Positions 1,245 to 63,395 of a stretch of DNA of 64,000 bases are shown here, piece by piece. The translations under genes were made by a program, and so were the position numbers. The stretch is from positions 1-64,000 of IMG/VR virus record IMGVR_UViG_3300021138_002011. One strand, 5' to 3'. Within the stretch, counting starts at the first letter, position 1, and each line of letters starts with the position of its first letter. The DNA is from a virus. The notes under the pieces are model-generated. The model had not been told where the DNA came from and did no database searches. It saw nothing but the letters and a program-made list of their open reading frames with translations.

Positions 1245-1979
1245 ATGCGTATAACAGAAATAACAACCGTAGGCCATTTGTTTGAAAGTGTTGAACTAGC
1301 AAGTACGTTACGTTCAATTGCAAGTGAAATAGGAAATCCTGTTACTGCGATATATGACAAACTAACCGAATTTGCAGAACGCTGGAGTGAAAATCACGAC
1401 AGCATGAAAAATTTTGGATTTTTAGAAAAGAACATCAATGACAGGTGGTACAACGAGCAAGGTGACAATCTTATTGCCGAGTTGTACCATCTAGCAGATC
1501 AAGCACCTAGTCAAGCCTCTGCACAGCTTCGCAGATTGTTGCTATCCAATACAACGACAAATTTTAGAACACTTGGTAAAAATCTTACACCAATATTGAT
1601 ACAAATTGGTTTAGACACTAACTACAACCATTTAGTAAGAAACGCGCAAGCATGGCAGCAGCAAGAAAAAAACTTTGCGCAAACCCTTGAAAAACTTGAC
1701 AAATATTCTGCATCTAGCTCAAAAAAACCAAGCAGCACATTAGGAGACACATCGGCTGCATCTATGTCTCCAACCCGTTCTGAAAAAATTGATCAAGCAG
1801 CGGCTGATAAAAAAATAGCTAGAGCGCAGCAACAGATCCAAATTGAACAACTTATAAATTCTGTTTTAACAAAAATTCCAAAAGGTGTAGCAGGCGAAAT
1901 TCGTAATGCAATTTCACGTGAGTCGAACAAGCTGATGGCACTTCAAAAAGAACTGACAAAACGAAATATTAAAATGTAG
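1245..1979 (+). CDS. late protein with MRITEI leader (putative head-packaged protein)
   Basis: Late promoter; N-terminus MRITEI...LFE|S. Confidence 0.6.
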   Translation: MRITEITTVGHLFESVELASTLRSIASEIGNPVTAIYDKLTEFAERWSENHDSMKNFGFLEKNINDRWYNEQGDNLIAELYHLADQAPSQASAQLRRLLLSNTTTNFRTLGKNLTPILIQIGLDTNYNHLVRNAQAWQQQEKNFAQTLEKLDKYSASSSKKPSSTLGDTSAASMSPTRSEKIDQAAADKKIARAQQQIQIEQLINSVLTKIPKGVAGEIRNAISRESNKLMALQKELTKRNIKM

Positions 1980-6643: not shown

Positions 6644-7558
6644 TCAGTTAATTTTTTTTGATGGCATACCGGCTATTTGATGTCTAAATGGGCTGGGAGT
6701 TTGTTGATTTTGTTTATAATTTTGAAATTTTTGCCATTCTGCAGGATTAGTTTTAACAGCGTTAACTATATCGCGTGCATCTTGTATCTTCAACAGACCC
6801 TGTTTTTCTTTAGGATGGTATACATTAATATATTTGGTTTCGCCATTCCACATGCCTTTAATATCTATCGCAAAAGCAGCGGAACCTAATTTATTAGCAA
6901 ATATTTTCAATTGGGTTGGTTTTTTCATATACTGTGCAATAGTCCCCGAAATATGCTCGTCTTCCAGCTTATTAAACCGAATGTCTCTCGCAGGTGGTTT
7001 GAAGGTGCCAACAGGTATTTTATTTTCTTTAGCATATTCCAATAATCGCAGTAAATTTGGGTTATTAGGTCGTATGTTCGCGTTGTTCCAAATTATTTTT
7101 GCCACATAAGGAAACTTAACTGGAATATCGCCGCCACCTGGTTTGTAAATAATTTCTTCGCCGGCCTCTCTATACATATGATGAATATATGGCTCAACTT
7201 CAAACCCAGCAGATTTCAGCGCTGAAACACTTAAAACAAACTGTACATTACCCATATAAATGTCTGTCCTAGATATACTAGCACTGAGATGTGGAGGTAC
7301 ATGCTCATTAGCATACCAAAGTTCTACCTTTCTTTTTGGAGCATTTTGTTCCCAGTTGTCGCCAAAAGATCTTAGTAATTCATTACTATCTTTGGTATTA
7401 CATTTTAAGACTCCAGAATCAAGTATTTTATTAATTTTTTCTATACTGGTGGCATGATATAGATAATCTGGATTAGTACGTTTGATTTTTTGATCCGGAT
7501 CATCTTCTGCTCTACGCATAGCCGGGTGCGGCGCTTCTAAAATTTCATGTATTTTCAT
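6644..7558 (-). CDS. putative ADP-ribosyltransferase-fold protein with MKIHEILE leader
   Basis: YLYHAT...ILDSGVLK, SISR, EAGEEII; start reassigned to the ATG 5 nt after TATAAATA (7564-7571). Confidence 0.55.
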   Translation of the reverse strand: MKIHEILEAPHPAMRRAEDDPDQKIKRTNPDYLYHATSIEKINKILDSGVLKCNTKDSNELLRSFGDNWEQNAPKRKVELWYANEHVPPHLSASISRTDIYMGNVQFVLSVSALKSAGFEVEPYIHHMYREAGEEIIYKPGGGDIPVKFPYVAKIIWNNANIRPNNPNLLRLLEYAKENKIPVGTFKPPARDIRFNKLEDEHISGTIAQYMKKPTQLKIFANKLGSAAFAIDIKGMWNGETKYINVYHPKEKQGLLKIQDARDIVNAVKTNPAEWQKFQNYKQNQQTPSPFRHQIAGMPSKKIN

Positions 7559-7645
7559 AAAATTATTTATATTTTTATAAAAAAAATACTGCGAAATAAT
7601 CAACTTAACAGCGCTGCAATTAATGGGTTGGCTTTGACATATTTG

Positions 7646-8459: not shown

Positions 8460-9095
8460 CTATTTTCGACAACTCGATATTCCCAATCTTGGTGCAGGAT
8501 CAACTGGCTCGTCATTTATACGCACTTCGAAATGCACATGCGGGCCAGTAGTATGACCACTTACTCCTACTTTACCTATTTTTTGTCCTCGAACTACAAT
8601 TTTGCCAGGAGCAATGTTAGTTGTAAACGAACTAAGATGAGCATACCGTGTGACACTACCATCTTCATGTTGAATATCTATCATGCGACCGTATCCGCTG
8701 TACCAGCCTGTGAATTTCACAACTCCTGCGCTTGCAGCAACAATCCAGCTACCAAACGGGGCAACCAAGTCTACCCCTGAGTGTACCTGACTGAAAGGTG
8801 TGCTCGTTCGTTCATACTCCATAACAGGAATAAGCAAACTGCCACATGATTGATTTAGAGTTGTGTATGCTAGTTTTGTCGGCTCAGCGACTGTGCGCAC
8901 AGTTGCGGCATTTATGGTAATATCACGATGTATAGTTGTTGTTGTAATTGGGTTAACGATATCTAGTAATTTGTCAGCAGCAGTATCTATTTCACTGTAT
9001 GCTGGTAAACTAACGTATTGGCTGCCAGGCCAACCGTACTTTTCATTAGCCGCAAGGACAGCGGCAATAACTAGTATTACTAATATAGGCCGCAT
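8460..9095 (-). CDS. M23 metallopeptidase
   Basis: HSGVD (HxxxD), YAHL, PHVHFE (HxH); N-terminal hydrophobic anchor. Confidence 0.9.
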   Translation of the reverse strand: MRPILVILVIAAVLAANEKYGWPGSQYVSLPAYSEIDTAADKLLDIVNPITTTTIHRDITINAATVRTVAEPTKLAYTTLNQSCGSLLIPVMEYERTSTPFSQVHSGVDLVAPFGSWIVAASAGVVKFTGWYSGYGRMIDIQHEDGSVTRYAHLSSFTTNIAPGKIVVRGQKIGKVGVSGHTTGPHVHFEVRINDEPVDPAPRLGISSCRK

Positions 9096-9132
9096 AACAA
9101 TACTTATCTGAAGATAATATATTTGTCAACAT

Positions 9133-9354
9133 TTATCCCCAGGCAAGCTTGAAAAATCCTGCATCAAGTTTATTGATAAAAGCAAAAATCATGCCTCGAT
9201 TATTATCCCAGCGCATTGTCCAATTGGTATCTAGTTGACCAACATGTAGATTACACCAATCTGAAATATAAATGTAATCTACATCTTTGCCAGATTCGAC
9301 CAAAGTTGAAACAGTGTATGGAAATCCTGTATTAGGTTCTATTTGTATGCTCAT
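9133..9354 (-). CDS. small protein of the W..G / F....F.L.W family
   Basis: SDWCNLHVG...FAFINKLDAGFFKLAWG. Confidence 0.6.
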   Translation of the reverse strand: MSIQIEPNTGFPYTVSTLVESGKDVDYIYISDWCNLHVGQLDTNWTMRWDNNRGMIFAFINKLDAGFFKLAWG

Positions 9355-9418
9355 TTAATTTTTCTTATTCACTGCGACCTCTGCGCATGTTTAGCTGCCA
9401 GCGGGCTAGCTAACCTTT

Positions 9419-10711
9419 TCAACCTGATGCTTTTGCTGCTTTTTCCAGTTGAGCTATAACGACCCCTGTCGGTATGCCGTGATGCCGGCTGTCACCTAGA
9501 CGACCTGGACGACCTGGACCTTTGCCATCTGCAAAGTTTTCACTTATGCTTTCCTTAGCCTTGCTCTTTCCCCAGTTAGCAGCACCTTTCTTTCTACACT
9601 GAACAAGCGCTCCACTAGCATAGGCGCTGGGCCATACATTGTATCGGCGCTTCACCTTGTAATAGCATGTATCTTTCTTTTCACGTAGGTCTTCCTCACT
9701 AACTAGTTCTCCTCCACAATGCGGACAAGCGGCTGGGTAATCTTCATTTTTGACACAGTTTGGAACTTTTTTACCAAAACGCTCTTTCATACCTTTTTTG
9801 TGATACCCAGGCCAACATTTTTCATCTAATATGCGAGATTTGTACTCACTTTCCGATACAGTTATTGCAACGTTTTTTACGTCGTCTGTCCTAATATGCA
9901 CTAATCTTAATGCCCCGTTGGAATTATTTCGCCAATAGCCTTGTGTATACAGATGCATCATCATATAATAAAGATACTTTGGATCTAACATTTGAGGATT
10001 TGTAACCTTTATACCAATCTGCTCCTTGTTAAATTCTCGTAATGGCCTACCGATTGTGTTGATATCCCCACGTCTAGTAATCCAAAAATCAGCGTCCGGC
10101 ATGTTAGTCGAAATATCGCACATGTCGCCTAATTTTCTAGCTATGCTTTCATTTGTGGCAACATTTTTAGCCTTGCCTTTGCGTTCTGGATTGGGATCTT
10201 GTCGCCGCTTGCGACGAGCTGCGGTAGCTCGACCTTTTTTTCCTAGGGCATGTGCTTTAGATTGGGGTAAACATTTTGGTTTGCCTTCTCTGTTGCTACC
10301 TCTAGCACATGCACCTCGTATTTTACCATCTGGTCCAAACCTTACCCATTTTTGTTGAAACCATTTACGTAGATTTTCATCTAAGTTATCGTTTATTTCT
10401 GTTAGAGCTTCTAACTCATGGAATCCGATAGAAGATAACGATTCCATGATATTTTCTATTAAAGAGTTCATGCGCGCTTCGTGTACAGACCTGCTCTTAG
10501 TATGTCCGTCAACCCGACGCTTACAGTCTATGCTTTTCTTGTATTTTTGGCTCCACGTTTCTTCAACATCTTTTTTGTTTTCATTCTCAACAGAGTTGGT
10601 TACCGTAACACCACCGTCGATCTTGGTGACGTTGTTGTGCCAATCGGGTTGATAATTAGAATCAACCCGATGTTTAATTTTTTTAGATTCTAGTAGCTCA
10701 GTTATCTTCAT
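9419..10711 (-). CDS. modular putative internal-head polyprotein (MKITELLES leader)
   Basis: Short basic/Cys modules (WSQKYKKSIDC; LRKWF..KWV; HsdS-like; CWPGY; CYYKVKRRY..WPSAYASG; NFADGK) separated by (L/I/V)xE sites. Confidence 0.65.
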   Translation of the reverse strand: MKITELLESKKIKHRVDSNYQPDWHNNVTKIDGGVTVTNSVENENKKDVEETWSQKYKKSIDCKRRVDGHTKSRSVHEARMNSLIENIMESLSSIGFHELEALTEINDNLDENLRKWFQQKWVRFGPDGKIRGACARGSNREGKPKCLPQSKAHALGKKGRATAARRKRRQDPNPERKGKAKNVATNESIARKLGDMCDISTNMPDADFWITRRGDINTIGRPLREFNKEQIGIKVTNPQMLDPKYLYYMMMHLYTQGYWRNNSNGALRLVHIRTDDVKNVAITVSESEYKSRILDEKCWPGYHKKGMKERFGKKVPNCVKNEDYPAACPHCGGELVSEEDLREKKDTCYYKVKRRYNVWPSAYASGALVQCRKKGAANWGKSKAKESISENFADGKGPGRPGRLGDSRHHGIPTGVVIAQLEKAAKASG

Positions 10712-10841
10712 TTAACTTTGTATTTTCTCTAAGTACTTTCTTGCCGTCGGGTAGCACAACCTGCGCAGATGGTAGTGTTTTACCTACCATCTCTGCTTCA
10801 AGTTCGTTTATAAGTTGCCGCATGCGTTCTGCGTTTGTCAT
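10698..10841 (-). CDS. 47-aa protein with MRQLINELE motif
   Basis: ATG overlaps the upstream stop (TAATG). Confidence 0.5.
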   Translation of the reverse strand: MTNAERMRQLINELEAEMVGKTLPSAQVVLPDGKKVLRENTKLNEDN

Positions 10842-12019
10842 TATTTTAACCCCGATAGTTGACGTATACGATCTAAAATTGCAGTCTCTTTTGAGTTGTC
10901 TGCTACAGGCGCTGCGGCCGCCGATTCGTCGATTTTGCCCCAATCGCTTTTGGCTCGAATAGCAAACGCTAATTCTTTCATTTTGGTATTATCGGCACTA
11001 CCGGCTTTGTGTGGCCCGGATGCTTTTAGCTTGTGATAGGCTTTTTGCAGTTCAGCTTTGGTTTTACCTGCGAACATTCCTTTTTTCTTTGTGTCAAGTT
11101 GTGTGTCACCTGCCCATTTTTCTGCTAGATCGGTATTGGCTTCTAATACCATTTCGTCCCAGTTGATGGACTCATTTGAGCCTTTTTTATCCCATGCACG
11201 CTGCTCGGATGCTGAATAGTTTTCGCTCGATTCGTTTTCAGACTCATTGCTCATGTAGCTGTCCCAGTCTTTAGTTTGTCCTTTGCTGTAATTTTGCGAT
11301 GTAGTACCCGCTTTATTCCAATTTGGTTTAGATTGGCTAGCATGACCTTTGGGTTCTTCAAACTGATTTGTTGTTACAGACTCGTTGACACTGTCTTCGC
11401 CAAACGTTTTACGATAGATATTAGGATCCATGCTACTACGGCTTCCAATTACAAGATGACCTTCACCACCTAGCAATAGGTCGTACATTAGTTTGATCAA
11501 CGCATTTGCGGTTTTTTTTGAATCTATTGATTGTGTCAAATACATGACTTTTTGCGGTTTCATAGGCCGACGGCTTGGTGTTGAAATCAGCTCCTTGGCA
11601 TATGCCTTCATGTCTTCCAAGTTTGGTAACGCTTCTAATTTTTTGATGTCGTCAATTGTAAAGTTGTCAGCCGGTCCTTCAGATAGTTCTTCATGTTTTG
11701 ACACTTTGTATGTTTTATCACCAACTGTGAACTCGTCTTTTCCAGCATCTATAGCAGCCTGCCGAGCTCCGCTAAATTCGTTGCCTTCGTCGGTTATGTC
11801 AGACTCTTCATTCATGCTGCGATGCTGCATTTCAGAATCTAATTGGTCTTGCTGGTCAGGACTAGCAATCTTTTGTTTAGTAGCTGGCATTTGTTGAAAT
11901 CTATCAAGCTCTTTGTCGCTTAACGCATGTGTTGGATCCATACCTACAGAGCTTTCTGCAGAAATAGATTCAAGCAATTGTTTATAACGCTTCATTTCGT
12001 CTGGCATATAAGTACTCAT
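10841..12019 (-). CDS. modular putative internal-head polyprotein
   Basis: MKRYKQLLES leader; modules EGNEF..GKDEFTV and W..K.G...T.AEL..FAIRAK..WGKI; C-terminal RIRQLSGL; ATAAATA at 12048-12054 plus AAGGAG. Confidence 0.65.
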   Translation of the reverse strand: MSTYMPDEMKRYKQLLESISAESSVGMDPTHALSDKELDRFQQMPATKQKIASPDQQDQLDSEMQHRSMNEESDITDEGNEFSGARQAAIDAGKDEFTVGDKTYKVSKHEELSEGPADNFTIDDIKKLEALPNLEDMKAYAKELISTPSRRPMKPQKVMYLTQSIDSKKTANALIKLMYDLLLGGEGHLVIGSRSSMDPNIYRKTFGEDSVNESVTTNQFEEPKGHASQSKPNWNKAGTTSQNYSKGQTKDWDSYMSNESENESSENYSASEQRAWDKKGSNESINWDEMVLEANTDLAEKWAGDTQLDTKKKGMFAGKTKAELQKAYHKLKASGPHKAGSADNTKMKELAFAIRAKSDWGKIDESAAAAPVADNSKETAILDRIRQLSGLK

Positions 12020-12123
12020 AGCAACTCCTTGTGCTCTAGCGGTACTGTATTTATGTACAGGCCAAAAATCGTAAATGTAATATTTGAAAATCAGTATTCA
12101 ATACCAAAATATCAAGGCGTATT

Positions 12124-12855
12124 ATGTATAGTTTTAATATAAACCAATCACTACAACCGATAAATAACAGCATGACAGCAATAAAACATAAAACCCATCC
12201 TGGATTTTTAAGCGTAATGTATCATGTTTTTGTCGGATCAGTGTTGCAGCTTGCTTACAAACTTGTTAAATCGTTGTGTGTATTGGTTGCAAAAACGATT
12301 TATAACTGTGCGGTATTTGTGTGGTATCTAGCTAAACAAGTTGTAATCTTACCCTTAACCGGTGGTAAGTTTATTGGAAATTTACTTTTTAAAAAACTAA
12401 AGATTAATTCTATAATGGCAGATTTGATGCAAACGCTAGCTATATGGACAGGGTTAAAAATCCTATCATGTTTAAAACTTGTGCTGCGATTCTTGTATAA
12501 TACCGGGTGGTTGATCATTCATCAATTTGCGTTAACATCGCTTAAGAACATTAGGGTGTTAGAGCAGAAACCAATTGTCAGTATAGGCTGGGAACTATAC
12601 GGCGAACTTTTTCCACGGCACAAACTTGATTATTGGATGGGCGATAGCCACATTACAGTAGAAATACGCAGCTGGTCGTACAATCAAAAATACAATCGGC
12701 TACGCTACGTTGAAACAGGAACGAAAAAGACTACGCATGTATGCTCACCACATGGAATTCCCTATATGGTGAGAAGAGTGCACTGGTGGGAGCCTTCTGT
12801 ACAAGCAAGCATCACACCGTACACACCTCTTCATAGCGTGTCTAAACAAGACTAG
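12124..12855 (+). CDS. hypothetical membrane-associated protein
   Basis: Long ORF with a hydrophobic N-half. Confidence 0.5.
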   Translation: MYSFNINQSLQPINNSMTAIKHKTHPGFLSVMYHVFVGSVLQLAYKLVKSLCVLVAKTIYNCAVFVWYLAKQVVILPLTGGKFIGNLLFKKLKINSIMADLMQTLAIWTGLKILSCLKLVLRFLYNTGWLIIHQFALTSLKNIRVLEQKPIVSIGWELYGELFPRHKLDYWMGDSHITVEIRSWSYNQKYNRLRYVETGTKKTTHVCSPHGIPYMVRRVHWWEPSVQASITPYTPLHSVSKQD

Positions 12856-12867
12856 ACACTGAATACT

Positions 12868-13800
12868 TTAATTAAACAAACTGCTTACGCTTTTCTCACG
12901 AGTAATACGGTCCATTGCATCGGCAATAAGCGGAGCAATTGTCAGTTGACGTATATTTGGTGATTGCATAATGGCATCTGTTGCTTGGATGCTGTCTGTA
13001 ACTGTAATCATTTCAATTTGACTGTTGGCGATTCGACTAACAGCCTGCCCGCTTAGTACGCCGTGTGTAACATATACACTTACAGATTTAGCACCGTTAC
13101 CCAACAATGCATTAGCTGCGTTGACTAGTGTGCCGCCACTGTCAACAATATCATCGATTAGAATACAATCTCTACCATTTACATCGCCAATTACATTCAT
13201 TACCTCTGATACACCTGCACGCTCTCGACGTTTGTCAATAATTGCAAGGTCGGTGTTTAGACGGGTAGCTAATGCTCGGGCACGTACAACACCACCTACG
13301 TCTGGTGAAACAATCATAACATCTCGGTCTTTGTATAGATCTTTAATGTTGTTAGCAAATAGGGGAGCAGCATAAAGATTATCAACCGGAATGTCAAAGA
13401 AGCCTTGAATTTGACCTGCATGTAAGTCTACTGTCAAAATCCGATTAGCACCTGCGTTGGTAATTAGATTGGCAACAAGTTTAGCAGAAATAGGAGTTCG
13501 AGGACCACTTTTGCGGTCTTGACGTGCATACCCAAAATAGGGCATAACAGCAGTTACTCGTTTAGCAGAACTTCGTTTTAATGCATCCAATGTTAGCAAC
13601 AATTCCATGAGTGTATGATTCGCTGGGTATGAAGTACTCTGAACCACAAATACATCCTCACCTCGGATATTCTCATGAATCTCGACACAAATCTCACTAT
13701 CTGCAAAAGTTCGCATGGTAGTATTGACTAATGGCACTTGCAAATGTTCAGATATAGCTTGAGCTAATAGTAGATTACTGCTTCCGGAAAGAATTTTCAT
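12868..13800 (-). CDS. prs: ribose-phosphate pyrophosphokinase
   Basis: [38 protein letters not shown]; start MKILSG after AAGGA; alphaproteobacterial-like sequence. Confidence 0.96.
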
Positions 13801-15726: not shown

Positions 15727-17781
15727 TTATTTCGTCTGGGCACGGAAAACTCCATCCCAGTTGGTCTCTGGCGGATCTTCTTTTAAATGCTGGCAGCGGT
15801 TGATCATCATATTATAGTAATCTTTTAGCTGAGAGTTCCATCCAGTTGACAAGCTCTTGGCGAGTATTATAGCTCTATCCCAACGCTGGCCTTTGTACGA
15901 TTCTAAAAATTTCTGATGTTGGCTTTGTGCTGATTGTATGTGATGAGGTTTGTCAAATGTAGTATGATCGACTACAGTAAAAATTCTAACGCCTTCGGTT
16001 TTACCTTTTACTGCAATAGTGTCTAATTCTACCGTTATAAATTCGCTGCCAAGTGCTTGTGCTGTGTTGTTGCCAAGCACTATTTTAACTCCGTAATCTT
16101 TGCTTTGACCTTCTAATCTAGCTGCTAAGTTTACAGCATCACCTAGGCAACTATAATCAAACCGTTGATTGCTTCCCATGTTGCCCACAACTACTTCGCC
16201 TGTATTGATTCCGATGCCTATGTTAATTGGAAGTAAATTGTCTTTTGCAAGCGCGTCGTTTAACATGTTAAGATGTGACAACATTTCCATGGCCGATTTT
16301 ACAGCCATTTCTTGTTGACGATCGACATCAAGAGGGGCGTTCCAGAAAGCCATTATGCAATCGCCCATGTATTTGTCAATTGTGCCGTCATTTTTCATAA
16401 TGATGTCTGTCATAGGAGTGAGAAAGCGATTAATCAAGCTTGTCAGTCCTTGTGGATCTGTTTTATATTGCTCGCTTATAGGGGTAAATCCGCGAATATC
16501 GCAAAACAGTAATGTTAGCTCGCGTGTATCTCCACCTAGTTTAAGAAGGTTAGGATTTTTCTGAAGTTTTTTTACCATCGCAGGAGCCAGGTAATGTTCA
16601 AATTGCTTTTTAATCTGTTGCTTTTGAAAATACTCGCTTAGAAATTTTATCACATACGCATGCAATCCGACTAGTACAATGCCTACGCAAAATGCAGTAG
16701 CGTCAAACAACATGTTGTATTCATTGTATAAATATATGCTTCCACCTACAGATCCTGCAGCCAGCAACAGCATGGTTATTATGCCTACATAAAGCCATCT
16801 TGTAAGAATTATTAATAACAGTCCTGCAACAGCTAATGCAACAGCCTCAAGTCCGTTGGCCCAATCGGCTCGCTGTATGTTTACTTTATTCTCCAAGGTG
16901 GCAATAACAGATGCAACTACATCTTGTGGGTACACTGTACCTTTGGCTGTAGATACAGGATTAGCAATGCCTGCTGCGCTTGTGCCTACAATTACAACAG
17001 CACCGTTAAAATCTGATGGAAGCTTTGTAATGCTTACAGCATGTGCTGTTTGGCTCCAATCTATCCAAATTCTTCCAAGCGAATCTGTTGTAATTGGACC
17101 AAATTTTGGTATTCGTAACTTTTCAATCCCATTTTCGTTAAGTTTGAGTTGAAATCCTTTGTCACCTGATATAACGCGCAGTGTTTCTATAGCTATATTA
17201 GGATAGAGTTTTCCATTTGATGCAACAATTAACGGTAATCTACGATTAACACCATCAATCTCAGGCAAGGTGTTAGTTGTGCCTACACCAGTTGCAGCAT
17301 TTTCAATTTCTGGTATATTAGCTATAACTCCTGGATACGTTAACACTTTGTTGATAAAGTTGCTGTTAATGATTGCAGATCCTGGATTCCTTGGTATATT
17401 TTTTCCGTACGCAGCCGGGACGCTTGCTAATACTACTTTGTTGTTTGCAAGTGTATCAACTAATGCCGAATCACCGCCTTGCCGATCTTTTTCTGGCATC
17501 AATACGTCGAATACCACTAATCCTGCATGATGCTGATATAATTCTGTAATTATTTGTGCATATATACGCCTATCAAATGGCCATTGCCCGTATTTGTCTA
17601 AGGCTGCTTCATCTATGTTTGCTGTGTAGATGTTATTTTGAGTTAGAGGCTTGCTTGTTATTAGTGTATCAAAATATCGCAGTTTGATACTTTCTACAAA
17701 GGTCGGTCCTGATATTTCTGCCGCTAGTACTAGCAGCAATGTAGCTATTGCAGTCCAGGGCGAAATGAGAATCTTTTTCAT
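15727..17781 (-). CDS. CHASE2-domain class III adenylate cyclase
   Basis: IDEAALDKYGQWPFDR (CHASE2), 3 TMs, FCDIRGFT, DKYMGD, GDAVNLAARLE. Confidence 0.93.
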   Translation of the reverse strand: MKKILISPWTAIATLLLVLAAEISGPTFVESIKLRYFDTLITSKPLTQNNIYTANIDEAALDKYGQWPFDRRIYAQIITELYQHHAGLVVFDVLMPEKDRQGGDSALVDTLANNKVVLASVPAAYGKNIPRNPGSAIINSNFINKVLTYPGVIANIPEIENAATGVGTTNTLPEIDGVNRRLPLIVASNGKLYPNIAIETLRVISGDKGFQLKLNENGIEKLRIPKFGPITTDSLGRIWIDWSQTAHAVSITKLPSDFNGAVVIVGTSAAGIANPVSTAKGTVYPQDVVASVIATLENKVNIQRADWANGLEAVALAVAGLLLIILTRWLYVGIITMLLLAAGSVGGSIYLYNEYNMLFDATAFCVGIVLVGLHAYVIKFLSEYFQKQQIKKQFEHYLAPAMVKKLQKNPNLLKLGGDTRELTLLFCDIRGFTPISEQYKTDPQGLTSLINRFLTPMTDIIMKNDGTIDKYMGDCIMAFWNAPLDVDRQQEMAVKSAMEMLSHLNMLNDALAKDNLLPINIGIGINTGEVVVGNMGSNQRFDYSCLGDAVNLAARLEGQSKDYGVKIVLGNNTAQALGSEFITVELDTIAVKGKTEGVRIFTVVDHTTFDKPHHIQSAQSQHQKFLESYKGQRWDRAIILAKSLSTGWNSQLKDYYNMMINRCQHLKEDPPETNWDGVFRAQTK

Positions 17782-17856
17782 GCGTTTATTTATAGAATAG
17801 GGTTTGCAACACTTTACTGTCGTTTATTGCAACGCGCAACATCTATATCGCATGCG

Positions 17857-27611: not shown

Positions 27612-28037
27612 TTAGCTCCAAGCATTACAGCAGCCTTGTGGGCTAACTGTGCTGCCTAATTTAAACGTATCTGGGATCTTTTCGTCTAACATTGCGAAAA
27701 GATCACAGGTACCATTTTTAAACCAACTGCAATTTTCGCAACGAACCTGACCAAGGACATAACCCGATTCATCCGGGGTTACAATGTCTTGTATAGGCTG
27801 GTCGTCGTGCGGCTTACCTTGTATATATAAACCGCAACTGGCGTTGGCAACAACTTTGTCATCTTTGCCAAATATGCCGCAGCGCTCCTTACCTGGTAAG
27901 AATAGCTCACATGTACTACATTGTGCAAATTGGTCGATGGGCGTTTTTGATTCAAGATACAAAAACGCCCATCGACCAATTTTATCACCTTTTTTATACG
28001 CTTGTTCAAGAAGGCTAATTAACGATCGCATGTCCAT
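27612..28037 (-). CDS. tandem HiPIP-like Cys4 protein with MRSLISLLE leader
   Basis: Two CxxCxxF-x(4-6)-C...V....C..(Y/W) units; ATAAATA 4 nt upstream. Confidence 0.6.
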   Translation of the reverse strand: MDMRSLISLLEQAYKKGDKIGRWAFLYLESKTPIDQFAQCSTCELFLPGKERCGIFGKDDKVVANASCGLYIQGKPHDDQPIQDIVTPDESGYVLGQVRCENCSWFKNGTCDLFAMLDEKIPDTFKLGSTVSPQGCCNAWS

Positions 28038-28129: not shown

Positions 28130-28819
28130 TTACCGACGCATTGCAGCATTATACTTATCGATAAAGTTTTTAGCTGCAATTCGTAATTCTTCTATGTCGA
28201 CATCAACTATGCTTGCATCTAGTTCTTTGCCTAGTACATAAATGTATGTTTGCATACCACTGTTTTCGCCGTTAGGGTCGGTGGCCTGTGTCATTTTTGA
28301 AAAATTACGTAGAACTAACATATCTTCCCAGTTGTTAGTCATTTCTTTAAACAAATTAGTAATTGTTGGCGGAGTTTGTTGAGGAGCAGCAATTGGCGGA
28401 GAAGGTATAATATCCCAATTATCTGACATAGTCATGTCTTTTATGGTTTTTAACAATGCCAATGCAGCGTTTGATTCGCTGTGATCGCATAATTTAAAAA
28501 GTGTTAATGTGTCCTGATCTATCTTATAAAACAGTATCACTCGTCCTTTGATAAGATGTGCATGCATAATTCCCGGAATGGCAACTTTGAGCATTCTGCC
28601 ATACGGAGCATCTTTTTTGCCAAATCTAATAGGAGGGTCAAACCATGCCTTATCTTTAAGGAATTCAGTGAAAGGTATGGTAAACTGCTCGCCGTTATTT
28701 TTTTTATAAAATTCTTGTTCTTTTTTAAAGCTGCCTTTTGTAGCTTTAATAGTTCGCGGAACAGCTCTTTGTACAGATTTGATATCTTCCTGTAATCTCA
28801 AAATTTCTTTTATTCGCAT
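28130..28819 (-). CDS. YafQ/RelE-like ribonuclease domain protein with MRIKEIL leader
   Basis: SFKK...KDAP.G...HAHL...VILFYKI....LTLFKLCDHSE. Confidence 0.6.
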   Translation of the reverse strand: MRIKEILRLQEDIKSVQRAVPRTIKATKGSFKKEQEFYKKNNGEQFTIPFTEFLKDKAWFDPPIRFGKKDAPYGRMLKVAIPGIMHAHLIKGRVILFYKIDQDTLTLFKLCDHSESNAALALLKTIKDMTMSDNWDIIPSPPIAAPQQTPPTITNLFKEMTNNWEDMLVLRNFSKMTQATDPNGENSGMQTYIYVLGKELDASIVDVDIEELRIAAKNFIDKYNAAMRR

Positions 28820-46168: not shown

Positions 46169-47257
46169 TTATAAAACGCAAGATTCGCAATGCTCTTCGT
46201 CATCGTAATTGATAGATTCAATCATAGCTGGAGTATTTTCTGCATCCATTTTGCTACCTTGTTTTTCAACAAGTGAGTAATATATGGTTTTCAATCCCCA
46301 TACGTGTGCCTGCATTAGGTTCTTCGCAATTAATGTAGTCGGCACTTTACGATCTGGAAAGTGTTTTGGTGAATAGAAGGTATTGGTACTGATAGATTGA
46401 TCTATATACGCTGCTAATACAGCAGCAGTTTTTAAGTAGCTATCACAGTTTTTTTGATCCCACAGCAATTGATACTTACTTTTTAGCTTTTGATATTCTG
46501 GCACAACTTGTATAAATGACCCAGCTTTTGATTCTTTAACACTAATCAAACTCATCGGTATTTCAATTCCGTTTGTTGAGTTAATGACAACACTTGAACT
46601 TTCAACTGGTGCGATTGCCATTAGTGTTGAATTACGAACACCATATTGTTTCATATTAGCACGAAGATTTTCCCAATCTAACTCTGGTGTAAAATCTGCA
46701 AGTTCATTAACACCAGTTGCACGCAATTCCCAAGGGAACACTCCTTGTCCGTAACGTGTTTGACCACTATGCAAACATGCGCCGCGTTCTTTTGCTAATT
46801 CGACGGTGGCTTCTGTAAGATAGAATGCTTGATGTTCCATCCAAGATTTAACTTCTTGTAGAGCGTCTTTTTCACCATATTTGAAGTTGCGTTTTGCATG
46901 CCAATATGCAAGGTTTGTGACACCAATTCCAAGTGGTTGAATCTCATCATTACTAAGCTTGCTTTGTATGCTTAGGAAATCTTGATAATCAAGTATATTG
47001 CATAAGCTACGTTGTAGAATTCTGCAAGCACGTCGCATGTCTTCTGGGTTTCTAAATGCGCCCCAATTGATCGACCCCAGAGTACACAACGATATGCGAC
47101 CGGTATCATCGTCAAGTCGCTTAAATGATTTGGTCGGCAAAAGTATCTCGCAATTATGGACTAATATATTATTAGCAAAAAAGGAGTGTGTTCTATCTAC
47201 TGTGATATCATATACCGCTTCTGGTTTCGATATTTTTATTTTTCTAATTTTAATCAT
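46169..47257 (-). CDS. nrdA: NrdA fragment 3 (IntC2 + C-terminal extein)
   Basis: 35-aa IntC ending VHN, then CEILLP..., LCTLGS, GLKTIYY, terminal CESC. Confidence 0.93.
   Translation of the reverse strand: MIKIRKIKISKPEAVYDITVDRTHSFFANNILVHNCEILLPTKSFKRLDDDTGRISLCTLGSINWGAFRNPEDMRRACRILQRSLCNILDYQDFLSIQSKLSNDEIQPLGIGVTNLAYWHAKRNFKYGEKDALQEVKSWMEHQAFYLTEATVELAKERGACLHSGQTRYGQGVFPWELRATGVNELADFTPELDWENLRANMKQYGVRNSTLMAIAPVESSSVVINSTNGIEIPMSLISVKESKAGSFIQVVPEYQKLKSKYQLLWDQKNCDSYLKTAAVLAAYIDQSISTNTFYSPKHFPDRKVPTTLIAKNLMQAHVWGLKTIYYSLVEKQGSKMDAENTPAMIESINYDDEEHCESCVL
47153..47257 (-). mobile_element. split intein 2 C-fragment
   Basis: MIKIRKIK...VYDITV..THSFFANNILVHN|C. Confidence 0.92.
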
Positions 47258-48222
47258 AATATACGTCCATGTTTATATGTTATATTTTCTTTCAAGAATT
47301 GATCTAATTGGTCTGCATTAAGTCTAACATTCTTAACTCCGTTTGTTACCCATCTATATATCGATGATGCAGATGACAGCTTCTTCTTTTGCTCATCACC
47401 CCTATAGTAAGGATTATAACTTACTACTGCTAATCCTGCATTAATAAGTGTATTATTCACTTCTGATACTAGTTCTTCACGACCATTAGTAAATCTATTT
47501 TTTATAATCGTAACACTAACATTCAACACATTCTTCAATGCATCATCCATCTCTTTACGAAGTATATAATTACCATACCTGTTATTTGTAATCACATAGT
47601 TTACAATAACATCTATAACCATCTGCCTAGTAATATCAGGTTTAGCATTTGAGTTATTCACACCAATTGATCTTGCCGACTGTAACTTAGACTGCTCTTT
47701 AGTATTCTTACGACCCGCGTTCCAATGTACCCATTCCTTTGATATTACTTTCTCGTGATTTGTTGGTACCCTGCCTATCTTCTCACCAGTGATAGAATCT
47801 TTTACCAACATAGTATTGACCATAGACTCGCGAATACCTTCTATAGCTAACTTACGATATTTCTCATATTTTTTTGAGCGTGATAAGTTATACCATTCTT
47901 CCCGCGGATGCGATGACTTGTCTAATAACGTAAAGAACCATACTAACGATTTTTTCGCTGACTGTTCATATCGTGTCCCACTGTAAATTTTTGTTAATAG
48001 CAAATGCGACAAGAAATGCTCGCGAATTGTTAATAATACCAAATTGTTCTTATCATTACAATCCCCATCTAAGTTTCCGATTGGGCCTGTTCTACCTCTG
48101 CGATTTTTAAACATAAAGGTAGGGATGATATGATGCAACTCATAATAAATCTTTCCACCTTTCACTCTATTTTCTTCTTTAGCACGATTTATAATATTTT
48201 GATAAATTTTTCTATAGTTCAT
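47254..48222 (-). CDS. HNH homing endonuclease between nrdA fragments 2 and 3
   Basis: MNY.KIY..II, ELHHIIP, NLVLLT.REHF..H.LL; own ATAAATA promoter. Confidence 0.88.
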   Translation of the reverse strand: MNYRKIYQNIINRAKEENRVKGGKIYYELHHIIPTFMFKNRRGRTGPIGNLDGDCNDKNNLVLLTIREHFLSHLLLTKIYSGTRYEQSAKKSLVWFFTLLDKSSHPREEWYNLSRSKKYEKYRKLAIEGIRESMVNTMLVKDSITGEKIGRVPTNHEKVISKEWVHWNAGRKNTKEQSKLQSARSIGVNNSNAKPDITRQMVIDVIVNYVITNNRYGNYILRKEMDDALKNVLNVSVTIIKNRFTNGREELVSEVNNTLINAGLAVVSYNPYYRGDEQKKKLSSASSIYRWVTNGVKNVRLNADQLDQFLKENITYKHGRIL

Positions 48223-48279
48223 AGTGTTATTTCCTTTCTATTATTTATGTAAGTAATAGTATTTCTGTAAATAACGCTA

Positions 48280-48597
48280 CTATTTTATCAGTAACTCGTC
48301 AGTCTCCTCTAAATCTTGTGCTTCTACCCATCCTCTGTTAGTGGTGAATATCTTGTGATCAACCGTGCAACGTATGATTTGCCCCGATTCTGTTTCAATC
48401 TCTACTAATTCATCTACCTTTTTGGTTAGTATAGCATTTGAAATATTCTCCCATACTATTTTTTTGCCGTCCCACGACTTCGCTAATACAGTATCGTCAT
48501 AATACCCGTTAGTCCAGCTTTCTGTGAAGGTAGCAATATTTGTCTTAAGAATTTGTCCTGCATACTGTATCTCTATTTCTGTCTCACCTGTTAAACA
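48280..48597 (-). mobile_element. split intein 2 N-fragment, 105 aa
   Basis: CLTGETEI, CTVDHKIFT.NRGWVEA.DL...D. Confidence 0.92.
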
Positions 48598-49422
48598 ACA
48601 AAGATTGCTTTGATATATGGTATGATATTCTGGATCAAACGGGCCTTGATTCTGAACGTTGTCAATAAACACAAGATAGATACGTCCAGTATCTGTGCGT
48701 TCTTTAAGTATGCCACCTTTGAACACTTCTTCTGCACTCATAGTTTTTGTTCTTAGGTCTGTGCGTTTTTCATATTGAACATACAGTTCTTCAAACAGTG
48801 CAGTGTTTTTATAAAACGCTTCATAGAGATCTGGAACTTCGTTTGGATCAAAGAATGTAATGTTTTCTTGGTTCTTAAATCTACGCCAGAAAAATGCATT
48901 TAGAACTACACCATAGTCCATGTGACGAACTCTAGTCTCTTCTGTACCTTGGTTATTTTTCAACACAATTAGATCATCAAACTGGTGATGCCATAATGGG
49001 TAGAACACTGTTGCACTATTGTGGGCCAATAATAATTTGTCTGGTTCCATCCCTGCATAATAATTTTCATGTTCATCAATGCTAAAATCGGCATATTGAG
49101 TTGATACGTTAGGAGAAGTTACTTCTTTAACTTTATCTTTTTTGTTGATAACAGACACTACATAATCTCCTGTAGTAATATCACCACCCTTTACATATTT
49201 GATTTTTCCAAATTCATTGATTGCAGTAGGATGTGTGTCGCTCGTAATTAATTTAGCATCCGATGTTGATGTAATTTTTACTTGGTGTTCATGTGGAACT
49301 ATCGGTCTCATGACATTTAATACTTTACGATATACATCCGTTTGTGTTTCAATATCACAAGATAGTACCAAATCTCCCAATTTTACTTCATCAATTTTAA
49401 CTCTGTTCGATAAAAATTTCAT
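48280..49422 (-). CDS. nrdA: NrdA fragment 2 (IntC1 + 140-aa extein + IntN2)
   Basis: AHN|SATVFYPLWH...ERTDTGRIY...QSNLC|CLTGET; AAGGA RBS. Confidence 0.93.
   Translation of the reverse strand: MKFLSNRVKIDEVKLGDLVLSCDIETQTDVYRKVLNVMRPIVPHEHQVKITSTSDAKLITSDTHPTAINEFGKIKYVKGGDITTGDYVVSVINKKDKVKEVTSPNVSTQYADFSIDEHENYYAGMEPDKLLLAHNSATVFYPLWHHQFDDLIVLKNNQGTEETRVRHMDYGVVLNAFFWRRFKNQENITFFDPNEVPDLYEAFYKNTALFEELYVQYEKRTDLRTKTMSAEEVFKGGILKERTDTGRIYLVFIDNVQNQGPFDPEYHTIYQSNLCCLTGETEIEIQYAGQILKTNIATFTESWTNGYYDDTVLAKSWDGKKIVWENISNAILTKKVDELVEIETESGQIIRCTVDHKIFTTNRGWVEAQDLEETDELLIK
49018..49422 (-). mobile_element. split intein 1 C-fragment, 135 aa (atypical, contains block B)
   Basis: KIDEVKLGDLVLS, TSDTHP, YADFSIDEHENYY, AHN|S. 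Confidence 0.88.
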
Positions 49423-50326: not shown

Positions 50327-50468
50327 TTCCCATATAGGCTAAAATAGTTAGCACATCAGTTATATTTATCACTTTGTCATCTTTTTTAATTATGTCACCT
50401 TGATAATAATTTTTGCCGTTAAATTCAAATCCAGTTAATTTGTCTACATATGAGTCTATGTGTACACA
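50283..50468 (-). mobile_element. split intein 1 N-fragment, 61 aa (block A only)
   Basis: CVHIDSYV follows the extein junction; no TxxH. Confidence 0.8.
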
Positions 50469-62711: not shown

Positions 62712-63395
62712 TTACTTGGCTTGAGTCATGCTTTTAGCAGCAGTCATTAGTGCTGCTCCTAATCCAACTGCCATATTAATTTTGTTTTCAAGATCAGATG
62801 TAACCTTGCCGCGTAATGGTTCGACTTGACTTTCGAGCCCTACCATAATTTGGCCAATAGTTGCAAGACGAGCTGCATCTGGATTGTTGCGATACTCGCC
62901 GTTTAAGTTTGCGTTAAATAGTTGCTGAAACATGTTTGTAGAGTCTGCTTCTTCTATTTCTTCAGTTTCAACTACAGGTTCTACAATGGTTGGTGTGCCG
63001 ATTCCAGCAAGCTGCATTATTCTGTTAATTGGATTAAGCGGTTGCATACCACCTAACACACCCTCATCAAGACGTTCTAGTCTAGATACTAACACCATTT
63101 TTGTACGCCCTTCAAATAGTATGCCAATGGTTCCGTTTGGTCCTTTTGGTACTGTAACTTCAACTGCATGAGATTCGTAAACAGCGATGTCGCCCTTTTC
63201 CCAGGTTATGCATTGTTCGGTATCTACTTCGTTTATGCGTAATTGGTGTTTGGCCTTACGACTCCAACGATCGTTTTCTGTATTCCATAAAACTAAATCT
63301 TCGTTGGTTTGTTCAGCTACTATTTTCATAGGTTTCATGTCAGTGTCCTCCGTTGTTCCACGCACTTGTGCAATGTAATCTAAAAATGTCTTCAT
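62712..63395 (-). CDS. protein with T4-CTS-like leader MKTFLDYI
   Basis: Leader resembles T4 IP MKTYQEFI; RIMQLAGI motif. Confidence 0.65.
   Translation of the reverse strand: MKTFLDYIAQVRGTTEDTDMKPMKIVAEQTNEDLVLWNTENDRWSRKAKHQLRINEVDTEQCITWEKGDIAVYESHAVEVTVPKGPNGTIGILFEGRTKMVLVSRLERLDEGVLGGMQPLNPINRIMQLAGIGTPTIVEPVVETEEIEEADSTNMFQQLFNANLNGEYRNNPDAARLATIGQIMVGLESQVEPLRGKVTSDLENKINMAVGLGAALMTAAKSMTQAK

What the first reader, a model, noticed from the sequence alone, without database searches (positions are those of the whole stretch)
9419..12019. Beads-on-a-string polyproteins punctuated by prohead-protease-like sites
Seen: in 9419-10711 compact modules start right after xxE sites: VEE|TWSQKYKK, LDE|NLRKWF, TNE|SIARKL, LDE|KCWPGY, LRE|KKDTCYYK, ISE|NFADGK. 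In 10841-12019: TDE|GNEF, LSE|GPAD, LAE|KWAG. Modules are basic or Cys-rich and linkers are acidic. Inference: virus-style polyproteins matured inside the capsid into many 25-100-aa peptides, a little-described way to encode an arsenal of injected mini-proteins.
Basis: partly seen in the sequence, partly recalled or inferred. Interest (0 to 1): 0.8.

Follow-up and report, generated by a model that had tools for sequence, protein, structure and literature searches.

The report
Protease-jointed phage head cargo proteins
Two neighbouring genes of an uncultured giant T4-related phage encode strings of small, mostly basic protein modules behind a T4-style head-loading tag and joined at the motif that T4-type head proteases cut, so they are probably packed into the capsid and cut into many small proteins, although no cut has been measured.

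Summary
Both ORFs exist on the minus strand: 9419-10711 (430 aa) and 10841-12019 (392 aa). All nine quoted xxE sites are present.

Comparison with several hundred metagenomic homologs shows that every recognisable mini-module is preceded by (L/I/V/M/F)-x-E, whatever lies upstream. Counts are 47/47, 69/73, 58/58, 57/57, 11/11, 112/121 and 8/8, against a background of about 2.5% per position.

Module order is shuffled: 37 orders among 239 homologs. Many homologs, and both window proteins, start with a leader resembling the T4 capsid-targeting sequence.

In the closest complete relative (453 kb), which has a gp21-type protease, three of the modules are separate leader-tagged genes. A non-T4-like roseophage without that protease carries two modules with neither leader nor motif. 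A cyanophage homolog (S-CREM2 ORF160) is listed in a published virion proteome.

Best reading: T4-type internal head proteins extended to multi-module, protease-jointed cargo. Cleavage itself is untested. Two of the nine sites (TNE, TDE) are non-canonical. The "arsenal" function is unsupported.

I class it as a new variant of a known kind. This scan has already noted the same architecture on other phage DNA.

The parts
12048..12055 (-). late-promoter-like CATAAATA upstream of ORF2 (one mismatch to TATAAATA)
   Evidence: Read. Exact TATAAATA sits just upstream of two other leader-tagged genes, at 7564-7571 and 1210-1217. Across the window as a whole, TATAAATA is not enriched: 10 found against 6.3 expected.
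12025..12030 (-). Shine-Dalgarno AAGGAG, 5 nt before the ORF2 ATG
10841..12019 (-). ORF2, 392 aa, multi-module protein
11969..12019 (-). ORF2 leader, residues 1-17, ending LLE|S
   Evidence: The leader is conserved in orthologs P0122-P0126 and P0146, all ending [LF][LF]E. The inner part MKRYKQLLE matches the leader pattern.
11678..11968 (-). ORF2 residues 18-114: acidic segment (pI 4.5) containing the small GNEF..KTYKV module (79-108), ending LSE114
   Evidence: (pLDDT 76-89 for 80-108, dips at 73-79 and 109-113)
11396..11677 (-). ORF2 residues 115-208: four-helix module NFTIDDIK...KLMYDLLL...FGE
   Evidence: pLDDT is 91-98 for 121-185. The module occurs at variable positions in proteins of 112-1595 aa. 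112/121 occurrences are preceded by [LIVMF]xE. It is a separate 114-aa leader-tagged gene in G002.
11120..11395 (-). ORF2 residues 209-300: acidic, low-confidence spacer (pI 4.4) with sites FGE208, VNE213, FEE222, VLE293, LAE300
   Evidence: Orthologs insert or delete whole modules here.
10925..11119 (-). ORF2 residues 301-365: basic helical module KWAGD...WGKIDE
   Evidence: pLDDT is 88-97 for 311-358. 8/8 homologous copies follow [LIVMF]xE-x-W. Copies occur in tandem in other proteins.
10844..10924 (-). ORF2 residues 366-392: C-terminal tail ending ..RIRQLSGLK, conserved in orthologs
10698..10841 (-). 47-aa ORF that overlaps the ORF2 stop (TAATG) and the ORF1 start (14 nt). It has a leader-like MRQLINELE near its start. 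Its status as a gene is uncertain.
   Evidence: No homolog among the stored proteins.
9419..10711 (-). ORF1, 430 aa, multi-module protein (module order a-b-d-z-f-g, plus module c)
10688..10711 (-). ORF1 leader MKITELLE|S, residues 1-8
   Evidence: Compare T4 IPII/IPIII MKTYQEFIAE|A.
10376..10558 (-). ORF1 residues 52-112: module a (WSQKYKKSIDC..) plus a helical segment, between VEE51 and LDE112
   Evidence: (47/47)
10148..10375 (-). ORF1 residues 113-188: basic module b (LRKWF..KWVRFG..NVAT), ending TNE188
   Evidence: 69/73. E112 is invariant in alignment A1. The module is a separate small gene in G002. The TNE position aligns with V[RK]E in many homologs.
9821..10147 (-). ORF1 residues 189-297: module c, ending LDE297, function unknown
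   Evidence: phrog_9737, phrog_4359, weak; mostly low pLDDT
9680..9820 (-). ORF1 residues 298-344: Cys-rich module d (CWPGY..PNC) plus CPHCGG knuckle (z), ending LRE344
   Evidence: 58/58; beta-hairpin 303-321, pLDDT about 85
9539..9679 (-). ORF1 residues 345-391: module f (DUF5872-like, ..CYYKVK.RY.VWPSAYA..), ending ISE391
   Evidence: (57/57). E344 is invariant in A1.
9422..9538 (-). ORF1 residues 392-430: module g (NFADGKGPGRPG..)
   Evidence: 11/11. It is a separate 66-aa leader-tagged gene in G002.

Best explanation
ORF2, possibly a 47-aa ORF, and ORF1 form a translationally coupled, probably late-expressed unit of an uncultured jumbo phage of about 450 kb. The phage belongs to the T4 superfamily; its nearest named relatives are Sinorhizobium phage Phosso and Agrobacterium phage Atu_ph07.

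Each protein starts with a short leader of the T4 capsid-targeting-sequence type: 8 aa in ORF1 and 17 aa in ORF2, both ending hydrophobic-x-Glu. The proposed mechanism has four steps, all inferred for these two proteins:
1. The leader takes the protein into the scaffolding core of the prohead.
2. The gp21-family prohead protease removes the leader.
3. The protease also cuts at the same hydrophobic-x-Glu motif that precedes every module. This would release about six pieces from ORF1 (39-185 aa, mostly basic, some Cys-rich) and about five from ORF2 (27-97 aa, alternating acidic and basic).
4. The basic pieces stay with the packaged DNA, as T4 IPI-III do, and enter the cell with it. The acidic spacers are probably lost or act as internal peptides.

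The unit 'hydrophobic-x-Glu | module' behaves as an exchangeable cassette. It can stand alone behind its own leader or be strung with others.

What is shown: the sequence grammar, the module shuffling, the protease in relatives, and the virion presence of one homolog.
For: (1) Motif grammar. [LIVMF]xE precedes each of seven unrelated modules in homologs whatever lies upstream: 47/47, 69/73, 58/58, 57/57 and 11/11, 112/121, and 8/8. Background is 0.0225-0.0255 per position.

(2) Leaders. 55 of 136 distinct N-termini of homologs fit M[KRN]x2-3[DE][LIVMF][LIVMFAT]x0-1E, against 0.09 expected (maximum 1 in 200 shuffles). Examples are MRANEFVAE|N and MKAKEFITE|K. T4 IPII and IPIII start MKTYQEFIAE|A. 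Residues 8 and 10 of that sequence govern processing (PMC9026906 section 2.6).

(3) Shuffling. There are 37 module orders among 239 homologs. ORF2 orthologs differ by whole modules inserted or deleted at the joints.

(4) Closest complete relative, G002 (452,799 bp, CheckV 100%, topoisomerase II 81% identical):
- It has Peptidase_S77 at 90 bits.
- It has a Gp23 capsid protein with an LxE-rich propeptide and a scaffold with more than 35 such sites.
- Modules b and g of ORF1 and the central ORF2 module are separate genes with their own leaders: MRAWEFIKE|N.., MRIFEILE|A...
- 7 first-ATG leader matches occur genome-wide, against 0.49 +/- 0.69 expected.

(5) Natural control. Roseobacter phage CRP-901 (53 kb) has no Peptidase_S77 hit at E<=1. 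It encodes modules f and b as small ORFs with neither leader nor motif.

(6) Virion evidence. S-CREM2 ORF160 (128342-129235) matches ORF1 residues 297-387 (E 1.8e-24, 70% identity) and 113-185. It is listed in the CsCl-purified virion proteome with 7 unique peptides and 13.1% coverage (PMC10665884 Table 3). Cyanophage homologs (T4-GC119) sit just after gp16 in the late structural block, and two depositors label them 'structural protein'.

(7) Structure. In the ORF2 model, confident modules (pLDDT 88-98) are separated by dips below 50 at 73-79, 109-113, 209-231, 304-307 and 362-374. These lie at or within 4 residues of sites 71/78, 114, 208/213/222, 300 and 365.

(8) Expression. ORF2 has a near-consensus late-promoter motif plus an SD. 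Exact TATAAATA precedes two other leader-tagged genes.
Against: - No cleavage or packaging has been measured for these proteins. The S-CREM2 table says nothing about cutting.
- The window's own assembly is not held, so its protease was not seen. The evidence comes from relatives.
- Atu_ph07 has the protease but no homolog of either ORF.
- The ORF2 site count is not above chance (168/2000).
- TNE188 and TDE78 have Thr at P3. Orthologs keep T/A at that ORF2 position in 5 of 6 cases.
- Many motif matches lie inside modules: FKE in module b of homologs, MKE349 in a pLDDT-96 helix, and LRE226 and MKE310. The motif alone therefore does not predict cutting.
- Module z is almost always directly followed by f, so the L.E between them could be structural.
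- Cyanophage homologs lack a clear T4-like leader: S-SM1 starts MPLVNQ.. and S-CREM2 starts MSSLSE...
- The natural control is one phage.
- The ORF1 model is poor (mean pLDDT 55.5).
- The homolog sets are top hits and are related to each other.
Confidence: 0.6

Rival explanations
1. The proteins act as intact multi-domain proteins, virion-borne or not. The hydrophobic-x-Glu before each module is a structural cap or linker feature, or a functionless relic of former leaders left when separate leader-tagged genes fused. It is not cut.
For: Internal relic-like leaders exist, for example MNSLIENIME inside ORF1. The same modules are separate leader-tagged genes in G002, so fusion would automatically leave the motif at the joints. 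Module pair z-f is nearly always adjacent. No cut has been measured.
Against: A relic would decay, yet the Glu is invariant in the alignment (E112 and E344) and present in 246/246 distinct contexts across five modules. Seven unrelated folds are unlikely to share one cap. The two CRP-901 copies lack it. The sites fall in predicted flexible linkers.
Confidence: 0.2
2. The proteins are prohead core or scaffold-like components. They are targeted to the core and chopped at many sites like T4 gp22, gp67 and gp68. Most fragments are expelled during maturation, so the proteins serve assembly rather than delivery.
For: ORF2 has long acidic, low-confidence segments (pI 4.4-4.5). The G002 scaffold and an acidic 309-aa neighbour show the same dense motif. 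T4 core proteins are cut into short fragments that leave the capsid (PMC5694885 passages).
Against: The folded modules are basic (pI 8.9-10.3) and 39-185 aa, the size class of retained T4 internal proteins. The genes are not in the head-gene block of the window; their neighbours are NAD-salvage and cell-wall enzymes. The genes are gained, lost and shuffled between close relatives, which is unlike essential scaffold parts. S-CREM2 ORF160 peptides are found in mature virions.
Confidence: 0.12
3. The conserved joint and leader are mainly a recombination grammar: short shared DNA that lets modules be swapped between phages. Protease cutting would be incidental or absent.
For: Modules are reordered, inserted and deleted exactly at the joints. 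For T-even phages, a conserved leader flanking variable internal-protein genes has been discussed as a recombination aid. This is recalled and was not seen in a call.
Against: At the 13 sites of the window the codons differ (CTA CTA GAA, GTT GAA GAA, TTA GAT GAA, CTA CGT GAA, ATA AGT GAA ...). They share nothing beyond GAA. P2 is variable. Three codons are too short for homologous exchange.
Confidence: 0.05

Closest known systems
Phage T4 internal proteins IPI, IPII, IPIII (and Alt) with the capsid targeting sequence, processed by the gp21 prohead protease
   Same: Both have a short N-terminal leader ending hydrophobic-x-Glu (T4 MKTYQEFIAE|A; here MKITELLE|S and ..MKRYKQLLE|S). The mature parts are small and basic. 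The lineages encode a gp21-family protease. Gene content is variable between relatives. The T4 review notes that the CTS may let T4-like phages incorporate various proteins (PMC9026906 section 2.6; PMC3012670 passages).
   Different: T4 internal proteins are single units. In the T4 papers I read, cutting is described at the termini only: the N-terminal leader, and for Alt also the C-terminus. Here up to seven unrelated modules are strung in one ORF with the cut motif at every joint, and the modules recur in shuffled order in thousands of metagenomic proteins. There is no sequence similarity to IPI-III beyond the leader. Processing is untested.
T4 prohead core and scaffold proteins gp22, gp67, gp68 (cut at many sites into short peptides)
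   Same: One polypeptide carries many hydrophobic-x-Glu sites and is cut inside the prohead (PMC5694885 passages). The G002 scaffold shows more than 35 such motifs.
   Different: Those products are mostly discarded helical fragments of an assembly protein. Here the pieces are discrete, conserved, independently occurring modules.
Ejection / inner-body proteins of phiKZ-like giant phages (phiKZ, 201phi2-1, SPN3US) processed by their prohead protease
   Same: These are head-packaged proteins with propeptides and sometimes several cleavage sites ending in Glu. Their protease is related to gp21 (PMC5694885, PMC10052503 passages).
   Different: Their motif is small-residue-x-Glu. Their propeptides are long (over 100 aa). 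The reported cuts remove propeptides rather than separate strings of autonomous modules. The lineage is different.
Polyvalent proteins of phages and conjugative elements (Iyer et al. 2017, PMC5512222)
   Same: Many unrelated domains sit in one polypeptide. They are proposed to be virion-borne and delivered with the DNA, and processing into separate domains is proposed (passages).
   Different: Polyvalent proteins are large, enzyme-rich and often carry their own metallopeptidase for autoprocessing. Here the modules are tiny and non-enzymatic, there is no embedded peptidase (Pfam: 0 families), and the proposed cutter is the prohead protease acting on a fixed three-residue grammar. The passages I read do not mention that grammar.
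Pfam DUF5872, DUF6321, DUF5661 and PHROG families 727, 3477, 38880, 23735 (all of unknown function)
   Same: Individual modules of ORF1 or its homologs match these families.
   Different: The families describe single modules. None carries a function or the leader and joint logic.

Membership tests
T4-type internal head protein (CTS-targeted, gp21-processed) | N-terminal leader of about 10-19 aa resembling the T4 CTS and ending hydrophobic-x-Glu | tested here: met
   ORF1 has MKITELLE|S (8 aa). ORF2 has a 17-aa leader ending LLE|S that is conserved in 6 orthologs. T4 IPII/IPIII are MKTYQEFIAE|A. This is similarity only; there is no functional test.
T4-type internal head protein (CTS-targeted, gp21-processed) | Phage encodes a gp21-family (Peptidase_S77) prohead protease | tested here: inconclusive
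   The window's own assembly is not held and the 30-kb nearest fragment G001 has no hit. The protease is present in the closest complete relative G002 (90 bits), in Atu_ph07 and in S-RIM2.
T4-type internal head protein (CTS-targeted, gp21-processed) | Protein present inside the mature head | tested here: inconclusive
   Only a homolog was found: S-CREM2 ORF160 is in a published virion proteome. Nothing is known for the window's own proteins or for the ORF2 family, which has no phage-record match.
T4-type internal head protein (CTS-targeted, gp21-processed) | Cleavage after the Glu of the leader by the prohead protease | not testable with these tools
   This needs mass spectrometry or an in vitro protease assay.
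T4-type internal head protein (CTS-targeted, gp21-processed) | Late expression together with head genes | tested here: inconclusive
   CATAAATA plus AAGGAG lie upstream of ORF2. Exact TATAAATA precedes two other leader-tagged genes, but the motif is not enriched in the window (10 against 6.3 expected). Cyanophage homologs sit in the late structural block.
Polyvalent proteins (Iyer et al. 2017) | Large polypeptide combining several known effector or enzyme domains, often with an embedded peptidase or a MuF/portal-type head anchor | tested here: not met
   Pfam finds 0 families in ORF1 and ORF2. Some homologs do carry enzymes (Pterin_4a, dCMP deaminase, ParB_N, cytidylyltransferase, GGACT). No peptidase or MuF domain was seen in the 10 homologs scanned.
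Prohead scaffold/core protein (gp22/gp67/gp68-like) | Encoded in the head-gene block next to protease and capsid genes; conserved and essential | tested here: not met
   In the window the neighbours are an M23 peptidase, a DPBB protein, NAD-salvage genes and PRPP synthetase. The genes are absent or split in relatives.

The most novel reading that the evidence does not exclude
Marine and freshwater T4-superfamily phages, from 170-kb cyanophages to 450-kb jumbo phages, share a plug-in cargo system. Its only grammar is 'T4-like leader, then hydrophobic-x-Glu before every module'. Any module placed behind that three-residue joint, alone or strung with others, is loaded into the prohead and released by the head protease. 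On this reading, genes are freely fused, split and reshuffled at the joints, and each phage injects its own mixture of dozens of small conserved basic or zinc-knuckle proteins and, in relatives, enzymes. The joint would then be a natural, portable 'cut here' signal, usable to predict virion cargo from sequence alone.
Probability: 0.45. Interest if true: 0.75.

Novelty: new variant of a known kind. Interest (0 to 1): 0.65.

Why it matters
If the joints are cut, one short rule (leader plus hydrophobic-x-Glu) would identify the head-packaged, co-injected proteins of a very abundant group of ocean and lake phages from sequence alone. It would also explain thousands of orphan 'hypothetical' multi-module proteins: 7074 of 8000 candidates scored and 4792 of 5451 shorter candidates matched ORF1.

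It would extend the T4 internal-protein paradigm from single proteins to combinatorial strings. It would give a natural design rule for loading several proteins into T4-type capsids.

It is directly testable in cultured cyanophages that carry homologs.

Tried and rejected
Function by homology or fold:
- Pfam finds nothing in either ORF. PHROG families matched by ORF1 are all of unknown function.
- PDB sequence searches gave no hit for ORF1 and only two hits at E 0.14-0.21 for ORF2.
- Foldseek of the ORF2 model gave no PDB match at E<=0.001, and one BFVD match to an uncharacterised uncultured-phage protein.
- The ORF1 model was too poor (mean pLDDT 55.5) to search with, so I did not.

Own-genome protease: the assembly is not held, G001 has no hit, and the search for related loci with ORF2 gave only a 4.7-kb contig end. 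I therefore used relatives found through topoisomerase II.

Megablast of 9000-13000 against phage records gave no match. tblastn of ORF2 against phage records gave no match.

Frameshift fusion of ORF2, the small ORF and ORF1 was considered and not pursued. Each has its own start, and ORF2 orthologs end at the same conserved tail.

Recombination-signal reading: rejected as the main explanation because the codons at the joints differ.

Literature: searches found no paper describing hydrophobic-x-Glu-jointed multi-module internal proteins. The library lacks most subscription journals. The supplements were closed, including Table S8 of PMC3037559, which may list T4-GC119 among the detected virion proteins. 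The claim is therefore limited to what those searches cover.


Full report
WHAT IS THERE.
The two coordinate ranges are two open frames on the minus strand: ORF1 at 9419-10711 (430 aa) and ORF2 at 10841-12019 (392 aa). Between them lies a 47-aa ORF (10698-10841). It overlaps the ORF2 stop (TAATG) and the ORF1 start by 14 nt, so the three look translationally coupled. ORF2 has AAGGAG 5 nt before its ATG and CATAAATA about 30 nt upstream.

The window belongs to a large T4-superfamily phage. It has topoisomerase II subunits, a ribonucleotide reductase interrupted by inteins, NAMPT, NMNAT-Nudix, PRPP synthetase, a ClpX-like ATPase and a CCA-adding enzyme. Its topoisomerase II is 56% identical to that of Sinorhizobium phage Phosso (469 kb) and 53% to that of Agrobacterium phage Atu_ph07 (490 kb). 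It is 81% identical to that of an IMG/VR contig of 452,799 bp rated 100% complete, called G002 here. The window's own assembly is not held.

THE OBSERVATION.
Seven fit hydrophobic-x-Glu. TNE188|S and TDE78|G have Thr at P3.

ORF1 has 16 [LIVMF]xE against 6.0 +/- 2.0 in shuffles (0 of 2000 reach 16). ORF2 has 10 against 6.5 +/- 2.2 (168 of 2000), which is not significant alone. If the joints supported by homologs were cut, ORF1 would give pieces of 8, 43, 61, 185, 47, 47 and 39 aa, with the last four at pI 10.2, 7.9, 10.0 and 10.3. ORF2 would give pieces of 17, 97, 94, 92, 65 and 27 aa with alternating acidic and basic charge.

COMPARATIVE TEST.
ORF1 has an enormous family. 7074 of 8000 scored candidates of 236-753 aa have E<=0.001, as do 4792 of 5451 candidates of 30-235 aa. 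ORF2 has 518 representatives at E<=0.001. Architectures vary widely. Some homologs carry Pterin_4a, ParB_N, dCMP deaminase, cytidylyltransferase or GGACT domains, and modules match DUF5872, DUF6321 and DUF5661.

I anchored five ORF1 modules by their core motifs in the 119 best long homologs and counted distinct upstream contexts. The three residues before the module are [LIVMF]-x-E as follows:

| module | [LIVMF]xE before module |
|---|---|
| a | 47/47 |
| b | 69/73 (Glu in 73/73) |
| d | 58/58 |
| f | 57/57 |
| g | 11/11 |

The background is 0.0255 per position, and most shifted registers give near zero. A second, tandem site 5 residues upstream is common for d and f.

For the central ORF2 module, 121 occurrences were found in 149 proteins. 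112 of them have the motif 0-9 residues upstream, with background 0.0225 per position, which by my arithmetic gives about 20% for ten positions. For the KW.. module the count is 8/8. E112 and E344 are invariant columns in a 40-sequence alignment.

Module order is not fixed: there are 37 orders among 239 homologs. ORF2 orthologs at 55-75% identity keep the leader and a conserved C-terminal tail, but they differ by whole modules inserted or deleted at the joints.

These sets are top hits and are related to one another, so the counts overstate independence.

LEADERS.
ORF1 begins MKITELLE|S. ORF2 begins with 17 residues ending ..MKRYKQLLE|S.

Among homologs, 55 of 136 distinct N-termini fit a strict leader pattern, against 0.09 expected (maximum 1 in 200 shuffles). 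Many fuse the leader directly to a module, for example MRANEFVAE|N-LRDWF and MKAKEFITE|K-WSQKYK. T4 IPII and IPIII, read from the T4 record, begin MKTYQEFIAE|A.

Section 2.6 of PMC9026906, which I read in full, says the first 10 residues suffice for head targeting. Residues 4 and 7 matter for targeting and residues 8 and 10 for processing, and Asp at position 10 blocks processing. That gp21 prefers (L/I)-x-Glu in general is my recollection. One search supports it only through those residues and the phrase 'cleavage logo (LIE-9)'.

THE PROTEASE AND THE LINEAGE.
Peptidase_S77 is found above its cut-off in G002, in Atu_ph07 and in cyanophage S-RIM2.

In G002 the protease gene sits beside three others:
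- a 403-aa scaffold-like protein with more than 35 [LIVMF]xE;
- the Gp23 capsid protein, whose N-terminal 55 residues hold five such motifs before the conserved mature part;
- directly downstream, a gene starting MRISEILE|A.

G002 has no collinear ORF1 or ORF2. Instead, module g is a 66-aa gene starting MRAWEFIKE|N, and module b lies in a cluster of four consecutive small leader-tagged genes. The central ORF2 module is a 114-aa gene starting MRIFEILE|A. Genome-wide, G002 has 7 first-ATG matches to the strict leader against 0.49 +/- 0.69 in shuffles. The window has 2 against 0.11. Atu_ph07 has no homolog of either ORF.

A NATURAL CONTROL.
Roseobacter phage CRP-901 is 53 kb and has no Peptidase_S77 hit even at E<=1. 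It encodes module f as an unannotated 54-aa ORF that starts directly with basic residues. The following ORF is module-b-like and its LRKWF core is preceded by Ser-Ser-Asp. Neither has a leader or hydrophobic-x-Glu. So the motif is not needed for these folds. This is one phage only.

VIRION EVIDENCE.
Cyanophage homologs belong to T4-GC119. They lie just after gp16, among late structural genes (S-RIM2; S-SM1). The depositors of S-B43 and S-B68 call them 'structural protein'.

Passages of PMC3037559 say 41 S-SM1 virion proteins were detected, but the list is in Table S8, which I could not open.

In S-CREM2, ORF1 matches the 300-aa frame 128342-129235 (gp160) at E 1.8e-24 (70% identity over residues 297-387) and at 1.3e-5 (residues 113-185). 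Table 3 of PMC10665884, seen as a passage, lists ORF 160 at those coordinates in the CsCl-purified virion proteome, with 7 unique peptides and 13.1% coverage. The paper does not discuss it. Its joints read LEE|K before CWPGY and ISE|G before the f module. This shows that a family member is in virions. It does not show cutting.

STRUCTURE.
The ORF2 model has mean pLDDT 70.9 and pTM 0.33. It has confident islands at 80-108, 121-185 and 311-358. Dips below 50 occur at 73-79, 109-113, 187-197, 209-231, 304-307 and 362-374. Sites 71/78, 114, 208/213/222, 300 and 365 lie in or within 4 residues of a dip. Sites 17, 293 and 349 lie in helices.

The ORF1 model is poor (55.5, pTM 0.24), with small confident islands for modules d and f. 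No structural or sequence relative with a known function was found.

INTERPRETATION.
The best reading is that these are T4-type internal head proteins in a multi-module form: targeted by the leader, then cut at every joint by the gp21-family protease. I put this at about 0.6.

Against it:
- nothing has been measured;
- the two non-canonical sites;
- motif matches inside modules;
- the constant z-f pairing;
- the lack of a clear leader on cyanophage homologs;
- the missing genome of this phage.

Rivals are uncut multi-domain proteins whose joints are fusion relics (0.2), a scaffold-like assembly role (0.12), and a recombination grammar (0.05; the codons at the joints differ).

The 'arsenal' idea is not supported. 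The modules are far more conserved across distant phages than is typical for anti-defence proteins. A DNA-associated role in the head is my preferred guess, and it is an inference.

WHAT IS KNOWN.
The following are established:
- The T4 capsid-targeting sequence, internal proteins and gp21 (PMC9026906, PMC3012670).
- Multi-site cutting of core proteins, and processing in phiKZ-like phages (PMC5694885, PMC10052503).
- The polyvalent-protein concept (PMC5512222).

For all but section 2.6 of PMC9026906 I read passages only. Six searches and passages of PMC9503650 and PMC7824862 gave no description of strings of autonomous modules joined by the protease motif. Hence the class 'new variant of a known kind'.

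Earlier notes of this scan describe the same architecture on DNA of other uncultured T4-like and jumbo phages. They agree with what I found independently. One of them gave me the lead to look for virion proteomes, which I then checked myself.

Noticed in passing
10698-10841 (-): A 47-aa ORF bridges ORF2 and ORF1. It overlaps the ORF2 stop as TAATG and the ORF1 start by 14 nt, and it has a leader-like MRQLINELE near its N-terminus. It has no homolog among the 396 stored proteins.
   Followed up: partly
6644-7558 (-), with TATAAATA at 7564-7571: A 304-aa protein starts MKIHEILE|A directly behind an exact T4-type late-promoter motif, next to the NAD-salvage genes. Pfam and PHROGs found nothing. 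Another note of this scan calls it ART-like.
   Followed up: no
1245-1979 (+), 27612-28037 (-), 28130-28819 (-), 62712-63395 (-): More genes have leader-like N-termini: MRITEIT.. (with TATAAATA at 1210-1217), MDMRSLISLLE, MRIKEILRLQE and MKTFLDYIAQ. They may be further head-cargo candidates.
   Followed up: no
ORF2 residues 366-392 (10844-10924) and orthologs P0122-P0126, P0146: All ORF2 orthologs end in a conserved ..R[IVL]R.L[SA]G[LI]K tail, whatever modules lie between leader and tail. It could be a second targeting or anchoring signal.
   Followed up: no
L047/L033 (G002:198892-204832): The head block of the relative G002 runs, in order: an acidic 309-aa protein, a gp21-like protease, a 403-aa scaffold with more than 35 [LIVMF]xE, the Gp23 capsid protein, and then immediately a gene starting MRISEILE|A.
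   Followed up: partly
L035 (G002:126103-129327): Four consecutive small genes each start with a T4-like leader (MMRISEILE, ..MRISDIDPLFE, MKIRDLIAE). The arrangement is reminiscent of the variable internal-protein locus of T-even phages.
   Followed up: partly
46169-51401 (-): The ribonucleotide reductase large subunit is in several pieces, with intein-splicing and HINT domains and an unassigned 322-aa ORF (47254-48222) between them.
   Followed up: no
15727-17781 (-): A CHASE2-sensor adenylate/guanylate cyclase lies behind TATAAATA (17787-17794). This is unusual cargo for a phage.
   Followed up: no
L038 (Roseobacter phage CRP-901, 41332-41460 region): Two small ORFs homologous to modules f and b are unannotated in the deposited record.
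   Followed up: partly
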